NCBI GenBank assembly: GCA_000004985.1
Contig: GG738903.1
DNA from: Naegleria gruberi
Lineage: Eukaryota
Reading direction: 5' to 3' (one strand)
Length of the DNA stretch: 64,000 bases
The notes below the pieces were generated by a model, which did not search any database, was not told the origin of the DNA, and was given only the letters and a program-made list of their open reading frames with translations. Below, in pieces: positions 12,820 through 26,983 of this stretch (the first letter of the stretch is position 1; the number at the start of each line of letters is the position of its first letter). The translations under genes and the position numbers were made by a program.

Positions 12820-12892
12820 CTCCCCCTGGTGGGCTCGAACCACCGACCTGCAGATTAACAGTCTGACGCTCTACCGACTGAGCTAAGGGGGA
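12820..12892 (-). tRNA. tRNA-Asn (anticodon GTT), 73 nt, no encoded CCA
   Basis: Cloverleaf folded by hand: acceptor TCCCCCT/AGGGGGA, D-arm GCTC-AGTCGGTA-GAGC, anticodon loop CTGTTAA, T-arm GGTGG-TTCGAGC-CCACC, discriminator G. Confidence 0.85.
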
Positions 12893-18175: not shown

Positions 18176-19251
18176 ATGTCACAACTCCATATGATAGAAG
18201 ATTTGAACGATGATGTATTTCACATTATTTTATCTTTTCTTCCATTCACAGATTTAAATCGACTACCATTGATTAGTAAGAACAATTTCCGAATGTCTCA
18301 ACTTGCTCTCTCTGACACGTATCATGAAACCAACTACCGTACAAAGATTGCCTATTTTAATGGAACTACTTATTCGTATTATTATCACCCATATGCTATG
18401 GAATTTTACAAAGAATATTTAAATATTACATGCAATTTTAGAAGAAATTTAATTAATTTTCAATTGAAAGTTAATGAATTGATTGCGGAAAATTATTCGA
18501 AACAAGAAGAAGCTCTGAAAACTAAATTTGATACTGTAGAGCTGTATCGACCATTTCAGGAAATTAAAAATTCAATTAACGTGGAACAAATTGAGAAACA
18601 AAAGTCTCGATTGAAGATTATCATATGTGGAGAAGGAGCTGTTGGAAAAACAAGCCTTATTCATAAATTATATTATGGCAAAATACCTGAATACTTTCCA
18701 GGAAATTGTGAGTTGGAAATTGGATATGGATATTTGAATAATGTAACAATGAACAAATTTGTAACATTGACATTGTGGGATACTGCTGGTCAAAAGTAAG
18801 TTCAATTTCTGTAATTTAGAGTTAATTAAAAAATTCATATTTCAGAGATTATGATAAGTTGAGACCACTTTCATATCCATATACAGATGTATTTTGCATT
18901 TGTTTCACTAGGATTAGTTCAAAATCTTTCAAAAAGATTCCATCTCGTTGGGTTCCTGAAATTAATCACCATGCACCAAACTCTGCTCTGGTTTTAATTG
19001 GATGTAAATTTGATCTTTTATCAGATACTGATGTGATTACAAAGCTAAGATACAGACATTTTGATTCAGCTGTCAAATATGAAAATTCAGTTCAAATGGC
19101 AAAGAATATTGGAGCATTAACATATATTGAAACATCTGCACTGACTGGTGAGGGAAACGTTTCAGATTTTGCTGAGATTATTACTAAATGTCATGCCATG
19201 TTTAGAGAAATATATCCTATCAAATCAGAAAAGAAGTGTATCATTTGCTAG
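18176..19251 (+). CDS. Rho-family small GTPase with an approx 130-aa N-terminal extension containing an F-box-like motif and a C-terminal CAAX box (CIIC); 2 exons join(18176..18795,18846..19251)
   Basis: F-box-like LNDDVFHIILSFLPFTDLNRLPLISK; P-loop [36 protein letters not shown] spliced across a 50-nt GTAAGT...CAG intron; C-terminal KKCIIC. Confidence 0.8.
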
Positions 19252-19305
19252 GCAATAAAAAGGTCATGAATTCAGCTCTTTGTTGGATCACGAACATTTG
19301 GAGAA

Positions 19306-19652
19306 TCAATACTTGAAGATCTTCATGCTTTCTTGTGGAGGAGCAAATGCACTAATATCTTCATTTTGATTAATATCCCTAGCAAAGAAGAAAAAGTCTG
19401 GATCGCATCTAATTGGTACCAAACCAATTCTATGAGCAAGGACTTCGTCTTGAATAATAGATGTATTTGTTACGATAAACAACTTTTTCAATACAGAGGA
19501 ATTGGTATGTATATAGCGCGATGAAATGGTATATATATCGTTTTAACTTATACCAACTCAACATTGTCTGTGGCTTGATGATTTCGTCTAGCGGAAATTA
19601 ATATAATATAATTAAATAATAAAGATGAGTAATGTAGTGCTTGCAATCGCAT
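19306..19652 (-). pseudogene. RNA polymerase I/III subunit AC40 (RPAC1)-like fragment; only the N-terminal part is present
   Basis: Encodes ...[29 protein letters not shown], near-identical to the AC40 motif [25 protein letters not shown]; there is no room for the remaining approx 230 aa before the convergent Rho gene. Confidence 0.5.
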
Positions 19653-20107
19653 TTGGTTTATTATTAATAATAAGAGTATTAGTGATTATTTTGTTGAATA
19701 TTATATTGAATCCATCACAGCAACGATCAGATTATAGAATCATAAATGAAAACCACTTTAGTATTTATTACGATATATACCTGAACGGTATGCCATGATG
19801 TATTTTTCTAATTGATCAAACATATTTTCGAGTTTAGTTTTTGCTTGTGAAGTAGTTAATGTTGCGATAAGATGATATCTATGATCTCTGAAGTCAACGA
19901 ACTCACGGCAGAGCCTACGAGGAGATTTTTGCTTCATTGAATTATACATAAAATCCAATTCACAGCAAGCAATTATGATGTCCAGTGCCCAAAGAGGAAG
20001 AAGGAGAAAGTTGTCAAGAAGGAAAAGGAGAAGGTTGTCACTCATCTGATAAAATTTTGTCGAGTCGTTCTAGATTTTTTTTATGGCAGAAAGGCTTTTA
20101 TTTACAA

Positions 20108-23100
20108 TTAGAACTGCGATGATGAAGAAACTTGTATCGTTTGGCCAGCAATTAACTCCATACAACTCAATGGTTTTTTCGATGATGCAACACTGAACAA
20201 ATGATCATCATCGCTGACATGTGAAACCGCCAAACCTCCAAAGAACGCATTCTTCATCTTTTGTCTCACTGTAAGCTTTTTAAGATTGGTGAAAAAGCTT
20301 CCTACTTGTTTCTTTCGTTGTTTCTCTTGGATTCTTGCCTCTCGTAATTCCTTTTCTCTTCGTTCTTGGACGATGACGTGCGTTTTGGTCATGTTTTGAA
20401 TGAAGTGAGCGACGATGCTTATCAGGGTCCTCTTTTCAATTTCCATATTTTGGTGCGGTTTCAGAGATTCTGATAATGTTTCGTCTGAAATAGTTGATGG
20501 TATACCATTTGGATTCTCGTCTTTCATGATATCTTTCTCACCAAAGAGTTCTTGAGTGGATTTGAGTGAGTGTTCTGCTTTGGTTAGTAATTGGTCAATT
20601 TTGACAATTTGAGTTTCTGCCATTTCAATAATTGGTCCAATAATTTCAATAAATCGATCAGTTTCGTCCAAAAGATTCTTCTCTTTCATAGATTCCATTA
20701 ATTTAAATGTCTTTCTCACTGAATCGACTTCATCTTTGAATTGTTGGATTTCTTCTCTGATGAGGAAGAAATTCATTGGTGCACATTTTGGAATATTAGA
20801 AAGCTCACTATCCAATTTTAAAATTTCAGGGAATTTTTCTTGACATAATTGACACAACACATGAATCATGGTCTTTTTCTGATCAGTTGATTTGACTTGT
20901 TCCAATACACTTAATGACGAAACCTTGAATCCATAAAGATTTTGCATTTTAGAATTCCCAGTATTCAAATAATTACTAATTGTCAAGACAAGTGACAGCA
21001 AATTAAGCCAACTTGGTGAGTTCTGCAATTGATCGCAAGCACCAATAATTATTTCCAGCTTGTTTCGAATATTCATTGCTGTAGAAGCCAAATTGAATTT
21101 AAACATCCAGGCAGCAATTCTATTCAGTGAGAATGGAATATCACGAATTTCATAAATAAACTTCTCGACCAATCCTAGAACCTTAACATTCATTGGATTT
21201 TGAGGAAGATTTTCCAATTCTTCAGCTGTTTTTGTAACACTTTCAACTTCTTCACTTGTTGGCATGCACTTAGATAGACAGGAAACAAGCTCTGTATCGT
21301 ATGATTCGTCCATTTGTAGAATACCCCTTCTCAATCTTGCAAATTTCATTTCATCAGTTTCGTCCTTATTGAGCTTCTTGATGGATTTCAATTGGATTGA
21401 AATCATGTAAGATTTGTTTTGATCCAAAACTTTCACTTCCTCAATCTTTGGTTTGTTGTTTGCTGGTTTCTCCTTTTCGGCTGGTTTCTTACTGATTTCC
21501 ACTTTCTGGAAGGTCTTTCCCAACGATTCCAAATCAATCTTCTTGATTAGTTCATTGGTATTTTCGGCAAGTTTCTTCTCCACAAAAATTGTCTTTTTCA
21601 CTTCGGTGTTCAGTATCCTTTCGAGGAAGATTGGTTTCGTGGCAGTACTTGGTTTTGCTTTTGGTAATTGAGGAAGATCTGAAAGAGCTCCCACATTTCC
21701 AACAGGTGGTGTTGGACAAGAATTACTTCCAGAAGGTGGAAGAGGAATTCCAGAATTCATTCCAGGAGGGAGTGGAACTCCTGTTGTAACAGGAGGTTGT
21801 GGAATGACTGGAACTTCTGGTGGAGTAGCACTAGTTGAAATGTTCTCTACAGGTTGCAATTGTGAAATTTCAACTGGTTTGGCAGATTGTTCTTGTAGTT
21901 GACTGACAACTGTTTCTACTACATGTTGATTGACTTGTTCAGGTTTCTCTTCATCCAATGAAGTAGCATTATTGATAATATTCTTATTGAAATCATCTTG
22001 TTCTTGTTTCTTTACCTTTTTTTCAAGGTTTGTTTTTTGGGTTTCTAATTTTGCATTTTCATTTTCCAATTTAAGAATATATTGCCTCATTTGTTCAATA
22101 TCCTTCCGTTGTTCAATTTCTGTTTCTGTGGTGAAAGTGACCTTATCTTCATTGATTGCAATTTTCAAAATTCTATCAATTGTCTTCCATGAATTGTAAA
22201 TTTCTCCCACACTTTGATTCTTAATAACTCCAAATTTGGTCAATCTCAACATGGTATTTAAACTATTCACAAAAATATTGTTAATTTGATTCGATTCATT
22301 GCTCAAACTTGTCAAGTAACTGGAAATTGATTTGGAAATCTCAATAGGATTAGTCGTATCCACATCTTCCAAAATTCCCAAACAAGTATCATGATAATAT
22401 TTGGAGAAATGTTTCTCAAATGCACCAACTTGCAATAAAACATTCGAATAAATTGGTTCCTTTCCCAAATCAATATCCAAATCATCAATAATCTCCTCAA
22501 TTCTCAAATGAATTTGTTTTGCAGAAGTGTGCATTCCCAAACCTTTCAATTCCTTAACAATCATTGATTTAATTCCCTCATTTGGAGATTTTGAAATCAA
22601 TCCATTGAAAAACACCATCAATGCCATAATATATTGCTTACTATTTCCCTTACATAAAATCTCCTCAGCATGATTTTCTAAATTTGCCAAATCATTGAAA
22701 CTTTTCCCTAAAAAGTGAAATCTTTTTGGTTCACTTTTAATTTTCTTAAAAAGGTAAAAATTTTCCAAAATCAAAGCATGAGTATCGACATTCTCAATAT
22801 GAATATTCAAAATAGCTGTCAGGAGAAGTAAGGCCTCAGCTCTCAATTCTAAAGATTCGCAATCAAGAATTAAAACTAAAGCTCTCAAAGCATCTCGATC
22901 TTTCAAGAAGAATTCTCTTGAAAATTCTGAAGCATCTAAAAGTTTTTGGGTGCATTTGAGGAAGTGAACTTCGAGAGGGATTCTATCCTTATTGATTTTA
23001 TCTGAAACAAGTTCTGAATGATCGAGTGAAGTAGTCATCATGGTCAACCCGCCACCTGTCAAGAAATCTGAAATCCATTTTGAGTATTTTGAATCCTTTG

Positions 23101-23620
23101 CCATATCATTTGAATTTTCTGAATCTTCTTCATCGATTCTATCTACACACACCTCCAAAACTTCACTAATTGTCTTCAAAATATTCGAATCATAATTCGA
23201 ATCTTTAAATTGTTGTAAAATTTCTTCACAACCATTTTCGATAATTGAAATCAATTTCTGAGAAAGATTAAAATTATTCTCTGGTACAAAAATTGTAGAA
23301 GTATCCAATACTTCAGACATGTCATTTGCCAGAAAGAAACCTGTCATGTTTGTTGTTGGACGATCAATCAGAGTTTCGAATATATGTTCAGTGAAAGAAG
23401 AAAACTTGGCAGAAGATGTTGGTTGTTCCGTAGCAGTGGTAATATGTTGTGTAGAGGAGAAAATATCCGAATTATTGCTAACAGTAACTTTGGACCTTTC
23501 TGTTTCGTTTAAATTAGTTTCATTATTCGATGATGATGATGGAAACACATCTTGTAATGTTGGTTGTTCATGAATTGAAGATCCTTCATCATTGGAAGTG
23601 TGACTGTCAGCATCCTCCAT
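20108..23620 (-). CDS. Formin (Diaphanous-type: N-terminal GBD/FH3-like region, coiled coil, Pro-rich FH1, FH2), 1170 aa
   Basis: FH1 PPEVPVIPQPPVTTGVPLPPGMNSGIPLPP followed by an FH2-like region (KPIFLERILNTEVKKTIF...GCMPTSEEV...NYLN.GN); single long ORF. Confidence 0.85.
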   Translation of the reverse strand: MEDADSHTSNDEGSSIHEQPTLQDVFPSSSSNNETNLNETERSKVTVSNNSDIFSSTQHITTATEQPTSSAKFSSFTEHIFETLIDRPTTNMTGFFLANDMSEVLDTSTIFVPENNFNLSQKLISIIENGCEEILQQFKDSNYDSNILKTISEVLEVCVDRIDEEDSENSNDMAKDSKYSKWISDFLTGGGLTMMTTSLDHSELVSDKINKDRIPLEVHFLKCTQKLLDASEFSREFFLKDRDALRALVLILDCESLELRAEALLLLTAILNIHIENVDTHALILENFYLFKKIKSEPKRFHFLGKSFNDLANLENHAEEILCKGNSKQYIMALMVFFNGLISKSPNEGIKSMIVKELKGLGMHTSAKQIHLRIEEIIDDLDIDLGKEPIYSNVLLQVGAFEKHFSKYYHDTCLGILEDVDTTNPIEISKSISSYLTSLSNESNQINNIFVNSLNTMLRLTKFGVIKNQSVGEIYNSWKTIDRILKIAINEDKVTFTTETEIEQRKDIEQMRQYILKLENENAKLETQKTNLEKKVKKQEQDDFNKNIINNATSLDEEKPEQVNQHVVETVVSQLQEQSAKPVEISQLQPVENISTSATPPEVPVIPQPPVTTGVPLPPGMNSGIPLPPSGSNSCPTPPVGNVGALSDLPQLPKAKPSTATKPIFLERILNTEVKKTIFVEKKLAENTNELIKKIDLESLGKTFQKVEISKKPAEKEKPANNKPKIEEVKVLDQNKSYMISIQLKSIKKLNKDETDEMKFARLRRGILQMDESYDTELVSCLSKCMPTSEEVESVTKTAEELENLPQNPMNVKVLGLVEKFIYEIRDIPFSLNRIAAWMFKFNLASTAMNIRNKLEIIIGACDQLQNSPSWLNLLSLVLTISNYLNTGNSKMQNLYGFKVSSLSVLEQVKSTDQKKTMIHVLCQLCQEKFPEILKLDSELSNIPKCAPMNFFLIREEIQQFKDEVDSVRKTFKLMESMKEKNLLDETDRFIEIIGPIIEMAETQIVKIDQLLTKAEHSLKSTQELFGEKDIMKDENPNGIPSTISDETLSESLKPHQNMEIEKRTLISIVAHFIQNMTKTHVIVQERREKELREARIQEKQRKKQVGSFFTNLKKLTVRQKMKNAFFGGLAVSHVSDDDHLFSVASSKKPLSCMELIAGQTIQVSSSSQF

Positions 23621-25036: not shown

Positions 25037-26983
25037 ATGTCATCTGCTGAAGTATTTGATGGAGCTATTGGTATTGATTTGGGAACAACTTATTCATGTG
25101 TTGGTGTTTATATGGGAGATAATGTAGAAATCATTCCGAATGATCAAGGTAATAGAACAACACCTTCCTATGTTGCATTCACTGATGAAGAACGTTTAAT
25201 TGGTGATGCTGCCAAGAATCAAGTTGCAATGAATCCACACAATACAGTATTTGATGCTAAACGTTTAATTGGTAGAAAGTTTTCCGACTCAACAGTTCAA
25301 GATGATATGAAACATTGGCCATTCAAGGTCATTACAAAGAGTGATGAGAAACCATACATTCAAGTTGAATACAAAGGAGAATCACATGTTTTCACACCAG
25401 AACAAATCTCATCCATGGTCTTGACTAAAATGAAGGATATTTCAGAACAATATTTGGGTAAACAAGTCAAGAAGGCAGTCATTACAGTTCCTGCCTATTT
25501 CAACGATTCACAAAGACAAGCAACCAAGGATGCTGGTGCAATTGCTGGTTTGGAAGTTTTGAGAATTATCAATGAACCAACAGCTGCTGCCATTGCTTAT
25601 GGTTTGAATAAGAAGGGTGAGAGAAATGTTTTGATTTTCGATTTGGGTGGTGGTACTTTTGATGTTTCAATTTTGAATATTGAGGATGGTGTTTTTGAAG
25701 TGAAAGCCACTGCTGGTGATACCCACTTGGGAGGAGAAGATTTTGATAACTTGATGGTTCAATTCTGCTGTCAAGAATTTAAGAGAAAGTACAAGAAGGA
25801 TATTCAAGAAAATCCAAGAGCATTAAGAAGATTGAGAACTGCTTGTGAAAGAGCCAAGAGAAATTTATCATCAGCTGCTAACGCTTCAATTAATGTTGAT
25901 TCAATTATGGACGGAATTGATTTGGATATTTCAATGACTCGTGCTAAATTTGAACAATTGAATATGGACTTGTTTAAGAAGTGTTTCGAACCAGTCAAGA
26001 AGGTTTTACAAGATTCAGGATTGGACAAGGCACAAATTGATGATGTTGTTTTGGTTGGTGGTTCAACACGTATTCCAAAAGTTCAAGAAATGCTCAGAGA
26101 ATTCTTCAACGGTAAAGAATTGTGCAGATCAATTAATCCAGATGAAGCTGTAGCTTATGGTGCTGCAGTTCAAGGTGGTGTTTTAACTGGTAAGGAAACC
26201 AAAGTCTTACTGATCGATGTTACTCCACTTTCATTGGGTATTGAAACAGCTGGTGGTGTCATGACCAAATTGATTGAAAGAAATTCAACCATTCCATGTA
26301 AGAAATCTGAAATCTTCTCAACCTATGCTGATAATCAAACAGCAGTCACTATTCAAGTCTTTGAAGGAGAAAGAACCTTGACAAAGGATAATCACTTGTT
26401 GGGAAGATTTAACTTGGAAGGTATTCCACCAGCACCAAGAGGTGTTCCAAAGATTGAAGTCACATTTGAAATTGATTCTAATGGTATTATGAAAGTTTCT
26501 GCCAAGGATACTTCATCTGGTAAGACACAAAACATTACCATCAAGAATGAACAAGGACGTTTGAGTAAGGAAGAAATTGAAGAAATGGTCAAGAAGGCCA
26601 AGGAAATGGAACAATTTGATAAGGAATTGAAAGAAAAGATTGATGCCAAGAATCAATTAGAGGCCTACGCCTATCAAATGAAATCCACTGCTGATGATCC
26701 AAACTTGTCTGGTAAATTATCAGATGCTGATAAGAATACCATCAAGAAGACATGTGAGGAAGTTATTAATTGGTTAGATAATAATTCTACCTATTCAAAG
26801 GATGATATTGAAAAGAAAAGAAAAGAATTGGAAGGTAAATGTGCACCAATTGTTAGCAAGCTGTATCAACAAGGAGCTGGTCAACCAGAATTCACACCAA
26901 ATGGAGCAAACTTTACCTCATCAGGTAATACTTCCAGTGGTTCTGAATCAAAGCCAAAGTTTGAAGATGTTGATGTTGATTAA
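25037..26983 (+). CDS. HSP70: Cytosolic Hsp70 (Ssa/HSPA-type), 648 aa, intronless
   Basis: [22 protein letters not shown] and [14 protein letters not shown] signatures; Gly/Ser-rich C-terminal tail ending EDVDVD. Confidence 0.95.

What the first reader, a model, noticed from the sequence alone, without database searches (positions are those of the whole stretch)
19306..19652. Orphan fragment of RNA polymerase I/III subunit AC40 (RPAC1) jammed against the Rho gene
The minus strand encodes ...[29 protein letters not shown], an almost perfect copy of the AC40 dimerisation motif. The ORF stops at 19306, only 55 nt from the convergent Rho gene stop, so there is no space for the C-terminal approx 230 aa. 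The flanking sequence outside the motif is poorly conserved. This suggests a truncated duplicate or pseudogene relic of an essential polymerase subunit. Less likely, the 3' part of the gene is spliced from beyond the Rho gene.
Basis: partly seen in the sequence, partly recalled or inferred. Interest (0 to 1): 0.5.

Follow-up and report, generated by a model that had tools for sequence, protein, structure and literature searches.

The report
Dead 164-bp RPAC1 gene fragment
A 164-base piece of the amoeba Naegleria gruberi's own RNA polymerase I/III subunit gene (RPAC1/AC40) has been copied into the spacer between two unrelated genes; it is a broken, non-coding scrap, and the real gene sits intact elsewhere in the genome, so the finding is real but ordinary.

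Summary
The AC40/RPAC1-like sequence is real. The window is Naegleria gruberi: the formin next door is 100% identical to an NCBI N. gruberi protein. RPAC1 homology is confined to window 19330-19493 on the minus strand, 164 bp. That is profile positions 104-164 of 420. Nothing else in the 64 kb matches RPAC1.

A full-length N. gruberi RPAC1 (P0189, 398 aa, both Pfam domains) lies on a different scaffold. The patch encodes IEKVVY, then one extra base that shifts the frame, then 39 residues identical to P0189. Eight further residues (SAFAPPQE) are identical to a close relative's RPAC1.

Against that relative's intronless gene, the DNA is 85% identical. There are 15 synonymous and 3 non-synonymous codon differences. 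At all three non-synonymous sites the patch carries N. gruberi's own residue.

The flanks show no homology. There is no in-frame ATG, no poly(A) tail, no target-site duplication and no repeat copy in the window.

It is therefore a recent, dead internal fragment of RPAC1. It most likely arose as a templated "patch" insertion during repair of a DNA break between the convergent Rho-type GTPase and formin genes. Interest is low.

The parts
19330..19493 (-). RPAC1-derived patch: 164 bp copied from the coding sequence of N. gruberi RPAC1. It corresponds to parent residues ~95-142 plus 8 codons that the annotated parent model skips.
   Evidence: blastn against the relative's RPAC1 gene (L002:10378-10540) gives 140/164 identical with 1 gap, E=3e-49. 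tblastn with P0189 gives E=1.6e-25 and with P0226 E=8e-30. It is the only RPAC1 profile hit in the whole window, 68.5 bits, profile positions 104-164 of 420. Its codon usage is coding-like, LLR 0.43 bits per codon.
19475..19492 (-). 5' part of the patch, read in the parental frame: IEKVVY, identical to P0189 residues 97-102.
   Evidence: Translation; P0189 sequence.
19473..19473 (-). One extra base (G on the minus strand) inside the Leu codon (CTA becomes CGTA). It shifts the reading frame between IEKVVY and TNTS...
   Evidence: It is the single gap in the blastn alignment. The window reads CGTA where L002 has ATA and P0189 has Leu. The two halves of the patch lie in different frames.
19330..19470 (-). 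3' part of the patch: [39 protein letters not shown], identical to P0189, followed by SAFAPPQE, identical to relative P0226.
19306..19491 (-). It has a TTG 'start' and no in-frame ATG upstream of the motif. The last 7 codons (SMKIFKY) and the stop lie outside the patch.
   Evidence: the ORF listing. The stop-to-stop segment 19542-19309 contains no Met before ...QESM.
19494..19757 (.). AT-rich spacer (about 18-32% G+C over most of its length) with no RPAC1 homology.
   Evidence: Local alignment to the upstream RPAC1 CDS scores no better than shuffles, 20 against a mean of 19.4. tblastx and the profile find nothing. G+C profile.
18176..19251 (+). Convergent neighbour: an F-box + Rho-type GTPase gene. 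Exon 1 is 18176-18795, the 50-nt GTAAGT...CAG intron is 18796-18845, and exon 2 is 18846-19251. The protein ends in the CAAX motif CIIC. An AATAAA lies at 19254-19259, before the patch.
   Evidence: Pfam Ras E=1.3e-29 and F-box E=0.0018. Intron coordinates. Sequence.
20108..23620 (-). Neighbouring formin (FH2) gene, which identifies the organism as N. gruberi. An AATAAA lies at 20102-20097 on the minus strand.
   Evidence: 100% identity over 1170 aa to NCBI 'FH2 domain-containing protein [Naegleria gruberi]'. Pfam FH2 E=2e-61. Sequence.

Best explanation
This is a non-functional, recently created fragment copy (a pseudogene fragment) of Naegleria gruberi's own RPAC1/AC40 gene. A 164-bp internal stretch of the RPAC1 coding sequence was copied from its locus on another scaffold. 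It was inserted into the 856-bp spacer between the 3' ends of a convergent F-box/Rho-type GTPase gene and a formin gene.

Shown:
- The identity of the donor gene and the sharp limits of the homology.
- A one-base frameshift.
- The lack of a start codon and of all other parts of the protein.
- The existence of an intact full-length RPAC1 elsewhere in the genome.

Inferred:
- The fragment does nothing. It cannot fold as AC40, because the dimerisation domain needs N- and C-terminal segments that are absent.
- It arose as a templated 'patch' or filler insertion during repair of a double-strand break, comparable to class 2 templated sequence insertions. This rests on its being short, internal to a CDS, without a poly(A) tail, without a target-site duplication, and without flanking homology.
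For: Organism: the formin is 100% identical to an N. gruberi protein.

Full-length parent gene: P0189 is 398 aa with PF01000 + PF01193. It lies on a 1,555,553-bp contig, whereas the formin's contig is 304,373 bp.

Patch limits: blastn against the relative's RPAC1 covers only 19493-19330, at 85% identity. The flanks are indistinguishable from shuffled sequence. tblastx of 13 kb around the relative's RPAC1 against the whole window hits only the patch. The heterolobosean RPAC1 profile hits only 19494-19312 in six frames of the 64 kb.

Origin in N. gruberi's own gene:
- IEKVVY plus 39 further residues are identical to P0189.
- Against the relative there are 15 synonymous and 3 non-synonymous codon differences.
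- At all 3 non-synonymous sites the patch carries the N. gruberi residue.

Dead:
- One extra base causes a frameshift.
- There is no in-frame ATG.
- Pfam finds no domain.

Insertion signatures: there is no poly(A) run after the patch, no flanking direct repeat, and no other copy of the spacer in the window. Class 2 templated insertions are described as DNA 'patches' from distant loci used in double-strand-break repair, without a target-site duplication or poly(A) (PMC5110952).
Against: - The parent gene's DNA could not be retrieved. Nucleotide identity, the exact breakpoints and junction microhomology are therefore unknown. The 3' limit (19330) is defined against a relative in a fast-evolving insert region, so it could lie up to about 24 nt further on.
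- No empty site from another strain or species was available, so 'insertion' and its mechanism are inferred.
- One indel with zero amino-acid substitutions is slightly odd. The indel could be a repair error, a later mutation or an assembly error.
- If the extra base is a sequencing error, a 90-odd-codon ATG-initiated ORF would exist.
- Transcription could not be examined.
Confidence: 0.78

Rival explanations
1. Remnant of a larger DNA-level duplication of the RPAC1 locus (an unprocessed pseudogene), later trimmed to 164 bp by deletions. Alternatively, an old decayed pseudogene whose centre was recently 'refreshed' by gene conversion from the functional gene.
For: By eye, weak echoes exist. 'ISARR...NVEL' upstream resembles 'IANAFRR...AIEK', and phmmer even aligned across my false splice junction. 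'IFKY*FSKC' downstream resembles 'VFxLxVxC'.
Against: None of these echoes survives testing:
- The AC40 and tail profiles find nothing outside the patch.
- DNA alignments of both flanks to the relative's CDS equal shuffled controls.
- The 'LFIV' continuation turned out to be a frameshifted EKVVYL.
- 'SARR' lies about 90 nt upstream of the patch start, whereas the corresponding 'AFRR' lies about 36 nt upstream in the gene.
- There is zero amino-acid divergence in the patch, which leaves little time for extensive trimming.
- The downstream side is occupied by a functional gene on the other strand.
Confidence: 0.08
2. Gene-fragment capture by a mobile element (Pack-MULE, Helitron or another transduplicating element) that inserted between the two genes.
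For: The spacer is fairly long for convergent genes (856 bp) and very AT-rich. It also contains an unexplained 95-codon ORF with weak coding statistics.
Against: No terminal inverted repeats or target-site duplications rise above chance around the patch. No second copy of any part of the spacer exists in the 64-kb window. No transposase-like Pfam hit appears in any frame of the spacer.
Confidence: 0.06
3. Assembly or cloning artefact: a chimeric read or a mis-join placed RPAC1 sequence in this spacer.
For: No independent assembly or reads could be checked. Exact-protein look-ups found no N. gruberi contig in the collection. The patch is near-identical to the parent, as a chimera would be.
Against: A 164-bp patch needs two chimeric junctions inside one read length, with unique sequence continuing on both sides into well-formed neighbouring genes. 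The patch also differs from the parent by an indel.
Confidence: 0.05
4. Functional element. Either a translated micro-protein carrying the AC40 dimerisation strand, or a transcribed sense/antisense RNA that regulates RPAC1, for example through RNAi.
For: The patch is 164 nt of near-perfect identity or complementarity to an essential mRNA, and it lies between two 3' ends where read-through transcription is plausible. If the extra base were a sequencing error, an ATG-initiated ORF of about 92 codons would exist (frame shown).
Against: There is no in-frame ATG and there is a frameshift as assembled. AATAAA signals for both neighbours lie before the patch, at 19254-19259 and 20102-20097. The isolated segment lacks the rest of both AC40 domains. 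No evidence of conservation is available.
Confidence: 0.03

Closest known systems
Class 2 templated sequence insertions / 'filler DNA' patches at repaired double-strand breaks (Onozawa & Aplan 2016, PMC5110952). Capture of cDNA or genomic fragments at breaks in yeast and plants is cited from my own knowledge, not checked here.
   Same: A short sequence (164 bp) copied from a distant, unlinked locus. It sits at a site with no homology to the donor and has no target-site duplication, no poly(A) tail and no mobile-element features.
   Different: The event itself, the empty site and junction microhomology were not observable here. Those systems were described in human, yeast and plants, and I know of no description for Naegleria. 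Whether the template was DNA or RNA cannot be told, because RPAC1 is intronless in relatives.
Pseudogene fragments / unprocessed (duplicated) pseudogenes
   Same: A disabled partial copy of a functional single-copy gene, with a frameshift and missing start and ends.
   Different: Typical duplicated pseudogenes keep flanking non-coding homology and larger portions of the gene. Here only about 12-14% of the CDS is present, with sharp edges inside the CDS.
Processed pseudogenes (retrocopies)
   Same: An intronless copy of coding sequence at an unlinked site.
   Different: There is no poly(A) tail, no target-site duplication and no 3' bias. The fragment is internal to the CDS. The parent is probably intronless anyway, so the lack of introns is uninformative.
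RPAC1/AC40 (POLR1C), the alpha-like subunit shared by RNA polymerases I and III
   Same: The patch encodes the most conserved AC40 segment ([19 protein letters not shown]), identical to N. gruberi RPAC1.
   Different: It is not a member gene. It covers only profile positions 104-164 of 420, is frameshifted and has no start. Both Pfam domains go undetected.

Membership tests
Functional RPAC1/AC40 gene | Complete ORF of about 330-460 codons containing both RNA_pol_L (PF01193) and RNA_pol_A_bac (PF01000) domains | tested here: not met
   Pfam finds no family in the conceptual product. Profile coverage is 104-164 of 420 only, and nothing else matches in the 64 kb. The true gene P0189 has both domains.
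Functional RPAC1/AC40 gene | Intact reading frame with an initiator ATG | tested here: not met
   A one-base insertion splits the patch into two frames. The stop-to-stop segment has no Met upstream of the motif.
Functional RPAC1/AC40 gene | Being the genome's only or orthologous copy | tested here: not met
   A full-length N. gruberi RPAC1 lies on a different scaffold. There is no synteny between the window and the relative's RPAC1 neighbourhood.
Split or spliced RPAC1 with distant exons | Other RPAC1 exons nearby, and splice sites at the edges of the fragment | tested here: not met
   No further RPAC1 similarity exists in the window. The candidate GT..AG 'intron' at 19483-19553 proved spurious. 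RPAC1 is intronless in two relatives.
Processed pseudogene (retrocopy) | Poly(A) tract at the 3' end | tested here: not met
   The sequence after the 3' edge reads AGCATGAAGATCTTC..., with no A-run.
Processed pseudogene (retrocopy) | Flanking target-site duplication | tested here: not met
   No flanking direct repeat was found.
Templated insertion / filler patch at a repaired double-strand break (class 2 TSI-like) | Short insert templated from a distant locus, with sharp ends, no homology of flanks to the donor, no target-site duplication and no poly(A) | tested here: met
   (different scaffolds). (sharp limits). (no target-site duplication). Definition from PMC5110952.
Templated insertion / filler patch at a repaired double-strand break (class 2 TSI-like) | An empty (pre-insertion) allele and junction microhomology consistent with end joining | not testable with these tools
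   No other N. gruberi strain, syntenic relative locus or parent-gene DNA could be retrieved.
Transposon-captured gene fragment (Pack-MULE/Helitron type) | Terminal repeats or characteristic ends, target-site duplication, and multiple genomic copies | tested here: inconclusive
   Nothing rises above chance in the local repeat scan, and there is no second copy within the 64 kb. The genome-wide copy number could not be examined.

The most novel reading that the evidence does not exclude
The patch is transcribed by read-through from either convergent neighbour, or from the minus-strand spacer. This would give about 164 nt of RNA that is near-perfectly sense or antisense to the RPAC1 mRNA. That RNA would feed Naegleria's RNAi machinery and tune Pol I/III subunit levels. 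A weaker version is that this is the first documented templated-insertion repair scar in a heterolobosean, and that it is polymorphic among N. gruberi strains.
Probability: 0.04. Interest if true: 0.5.

Novelty: new member of a known kind. Interest (0 to 1): 0.15.

Why it matters
It matters little for biology: it is one more dead gene fragment. It has three modest uses.

- Annotation. The locus should not be called as an RPAC1 gene or exon.
- A marker of DNA-repair outcomes. It is a clean, young example of a short unlinked CDS fragment inserted in a protist intergenic spacer. That could serve as a strain-polymorphism marker, or as a marker of repair outcomes, in Naegleria.
- A check on the parent gene model. 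The patch preserves eight codons (SAFAPPQE) that the annotated N. gruberi RPAC1 model skips. Together with the uninterrupted ORFs in relatives, this suggests that the reference model wrongly removes a 51-residue coding insert as an intron.

Tried and rejected
1. I first built a two-exon model: '...ISARRNHQATDNVEL' + a 71-nt GT..AG intron (19553-19483) + 'LFIVTNTS...'. phmmer and the AC40 profile even aligned across the junction and gained about 5 bits. DNA comparison with a relative's gene showed the model is wrong. 'KKLFIV' is IEKVVYL read out of frame after a 1-nt insertion, and the 'upstream exon' is unrelated.

2. I suspected decayed homology running through the stop ('FKY*FSKCS*SNKELNS' against 'FRLQVRCT..SSDPNELYV'). 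The full and tail-specific profiles give no signal there.

3. The first word-indexed homologue search with the 86-aa conceptual product returned only 6 metagenomic fragments. It missed N. gruberi's own RPAC1 even though 39 consecutive residues are identical. Negatives from that index are unreliable.

4. The exhaustive representative search listed 150 AC40s but no Naegleria sequence, because of clustering at 50% identity.

5. Exact-product look-ups for the window's formin, Hsp70, LRR protein, the 61- and 95-codon ORFs, P0156 and P0189 found no N. gruberi contig. Exact look-ups of my guessed gene models were also negative.

6. A metagenome scan for a syntenic Rho locus gave only a GTPase 42% identical, which was not useful.

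7. Literature searches for Naegleria with RPAC1/AC40 found nothing relevant.

8. Pfam and PDB searches of every spacer ORF, looking for a second captured fragment or a transposase, found nothing significant.

9. Rfam found only a distant tRNA.

Full report
**What is in the sequence**

The window is AT-rich (about 33% G+C) and densely packed with long ORFs. On the minus strand, 19306-19491 reads [60 protein letters not shown]. The stop is at 19306-19308. That is 54 nt from the TAG (19249-19251) of a convergent plus-strand gene. That gene encodes an F-box plus a Rho-type GTPase and ends in a CAAX box (Pfam Ras E=1.3e-29; one 50-nt intron). On the other side lies a minus-strand formin, 20108-23620 (FH2 E=2e-61).

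The similarity to AC40/RPAC1 is far beyond chance:
- phmmer against PDB gives E=1.2e-10 to S. pombe RPAC1, with RPB3 chains about seven orders of magnitude weaker.
- An AC40 profile built from retrieved full-length sequences gives 53.6 bits, covering profile positions 93-133 of 349.

**Organism and the real gene**

The formin ORF is 100% identical over 1170 aa to 'FH2 domain-containing protein [Naegleria gruberi]' on a 304,373-bp contig. A profile search with protist AC40s then recovered the genuine N. gruberi RPAC1:
- P0189 is 398 aa, carries PF01000 + PF01193, and lies on a different contig of 1,555,553 bp.
- The same search also recovered Willaertia magna RPAC1 (P0213) and a close Naegleria-like metagenomic RPAC1 (P0226).

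A full-length RPAC1 exists elsewhere in the genome.

**Anatomy of the fragment**

P0189 reads ...[49 protein letters not shown].... The window encodes TNTS...NEDI identically, 39 residues. It continues with SAFAPPQE, which is identical to P0226.

I retrieved the DNA of P0226's gene. It is L002:10001-11467, an uninterrupted ORF. blastn of the window against it gives a single alignment: window 19493-19330, 140/164 identical, with one gap.

That alignment shows the six codons before TNTS are also present, but in another frame. The window reads ATT GAA AAA GTT GTT TAT = IEKVVY, exactly as in P0189. It then reads CGTA where the gene has a Leu/Ile codon.

Against the relative, 18 codons differ: 15 synonymously and 3 non-synonymously. 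At all three non-synonymous sites (V, C, F) the patch has N. gruberi's own residue. The donor was therefore N. gruberi's own gene lineage, after its split from the relative.

The 45 codons directly comparable with P0189 show no amino-acid change. A neutrally evolving copy must then be very young. By my rough estimate, zero changes in about 100 non-synonymous sites puts divergence below about 3%.

**Edges and surroundings**

Outside 19330-19493 nothing is RPAC1-like:
- Local DNA alignments of both flanks to the adjoining CDS of the relative score the same as shuffled sequence.
- tblastx of the relative's 13-kb RPAC1 neighbourhood against the 64-kb window finds only the patch, so there is no synteny.
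- A heterolobosean RPAC1 profile run on all six frames of the window gives a single hit, 19494-19312, profile positions 104-164 of 420. All other scores are negative.

The stop-to-stop frame holding the motif has no ATG before it, and Pfam recognises no domain in the conceptual product.

There is no A-run after the patch, no flanking direct repeat and no convincing inverted repeat. No second copy of any part of the 856-bp spacer exists in the window, and no transposase-like or other domain appears in any spacer frame. AATAAA motifs follow both neighbouring stop codons closely, at 19254-19259 on the plus strand and 20102-20097 on the minus strand. The neighbours' mRNAs therefore probably end before the patch; that is an inference. 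The patch keeps coding-like codon usage (0.43 bits per codon, against a mean of 0.35 for real genes), while the spacer next to it falls to 18-28% G+C.

**Interpretation**

The fragment is a dead, internal, 164-bp copy of RPAC1. It cannot be a functional AC40:
- It lacks about 95 N-terminal codons and 250-310 C-terminal codons.
- It is frameshifted.
- It has no start codon.

It is not an exon of a split gene either. No other pieces are present, and RPAC1 is intronless in both relatives examined.

The mechanism of origin is inferred, not shown. The fragment is short, unlinked to its donor and sharply bounded inside a CDS, and it has no poly(A), target-site duplication or element features. These traits fit the 'patch' type of templated insertion made during double-strand-break repair, the class 2 templated sequence insertions of PMC5110952. 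They fit that better than retroposition, segmental duplication or transposon capture. The extra base may be a repair error, a later mutation or an assembly error.

The rivals are listed with the tests that would separate them: a larger duplication later trimmed, or an old pseudogene refreshed by gene conversion; transposon capture; an assembly chimera; and a regulatory or peptide function. None has positive support.

**False leads, recorded for honesty**

I first believed in an upstream exon and a 71-nt intron, and in decayed homology beyond the stop codon. Profile tests and the DNA alignment refuted both.

The first homologue search missed the parent gene despite 39 identical residues, so its silence meant nothing.

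**Limits**

I could not obtain the N. gruberi RPAC1 locus DNA, other N. gruberi strains, reads or expression data. Nucleotide identity to the parent, the exact 3' edge (19330, possibly up to 24 nt further), junction microhomology, presence/absence polymorphism and transcription all remain untested.

**Verdict**

It is an ordinary kind of feature, and a new instance of a known kind. Interest is low, about 0.15.

Noticed in passing
Not in the window: N. gruberi RPAC1 model P0189 compared with L002:10001-11467 and L003:3001-4278. The patch codons concerned are 19330-19353.: The annotated N. gruberi RPAC1 (398 aa) lacks a 51-residue segment after ...NQNEDI. That segment is coding in the uninterrupted ORFs of a close Naegleria-like relative and of Willaertia magna. 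The patch preserves its first 8 codons (SAFAPPQE). The reference model probably removes a coding insert as a spurious intron, with a weak GTGCAT donor.
   Followed up: partly
window 18176-19251 (+): A gene fusing an N-terminal F-box-like region to a Rho-type GTPase domain with a CAAX end (CIIC). It has one 50-nt GTAAGT...CAG intron at 18796-18845. My spliced 341-aa model is not in the protein collection as an exact sequence.
   Followed up: partly
window 19758-20045 (-): A 95-codon ATG ORF lies just downstream of the formin stop. It has no Pfam or PDB match. Its codon statistics are weak: 0.086 bits per codon, below the 5th percentile (0.134) of real coding chunks. It contains a 24-nt tandem duplication at 19992-20039. 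It may be non-coding spacer or an orphan gene.
   Followed up: partly
window 19465-19479 and about 19765-19779 (-): The 15-mer TATCGTAA[C/T]AAATAC occurs twice, matching at 14 of 15 positions. In the patch copy it includes the frameshifting extra G. The second copy lies about 290 nt upstream in the spacer. In shuffle tests, 16 of 300 reach the same score, so this is borderline. It may be chance, or a hint of local template switching.
   Followed up: partly
window 19297-19327 (-): The sequence immediately 3' of the patch (ATGAAGATCTTCAAGTATTGATTCTCCA) loosely echoes the patch's own 3' end (ATGAAGATATTAGTGCATTTGCTCCTCCA). This is not significant: 52 of 300 shuffles reach the same score.
   Followed up: partly
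window 12820-12892 (-): A single tRNA-Asn (GTT) gene. It is the only Rfam or ARAGORN hit in the window.
   Followed up: no
window 25037-26983 (+): An intronless cytosolic-type Hsp70 (648 aa) whose C-terminus ends ...KFEDVDVD rather than the usual EEVD motif. The EEVD expectation comes from my own knowledge.
   Followed up: no
search results: Many of the best database 'proteins' matching the motif are 55-100-aa ORFs beginning MAIEKV... These are evidently prokaryote-style gene calls on short eukaryotic contigs that start at the Met of EVPTMAIEK. It is a reminder that such collections are full of AC40 exon-level fragments.
   Followed up: no
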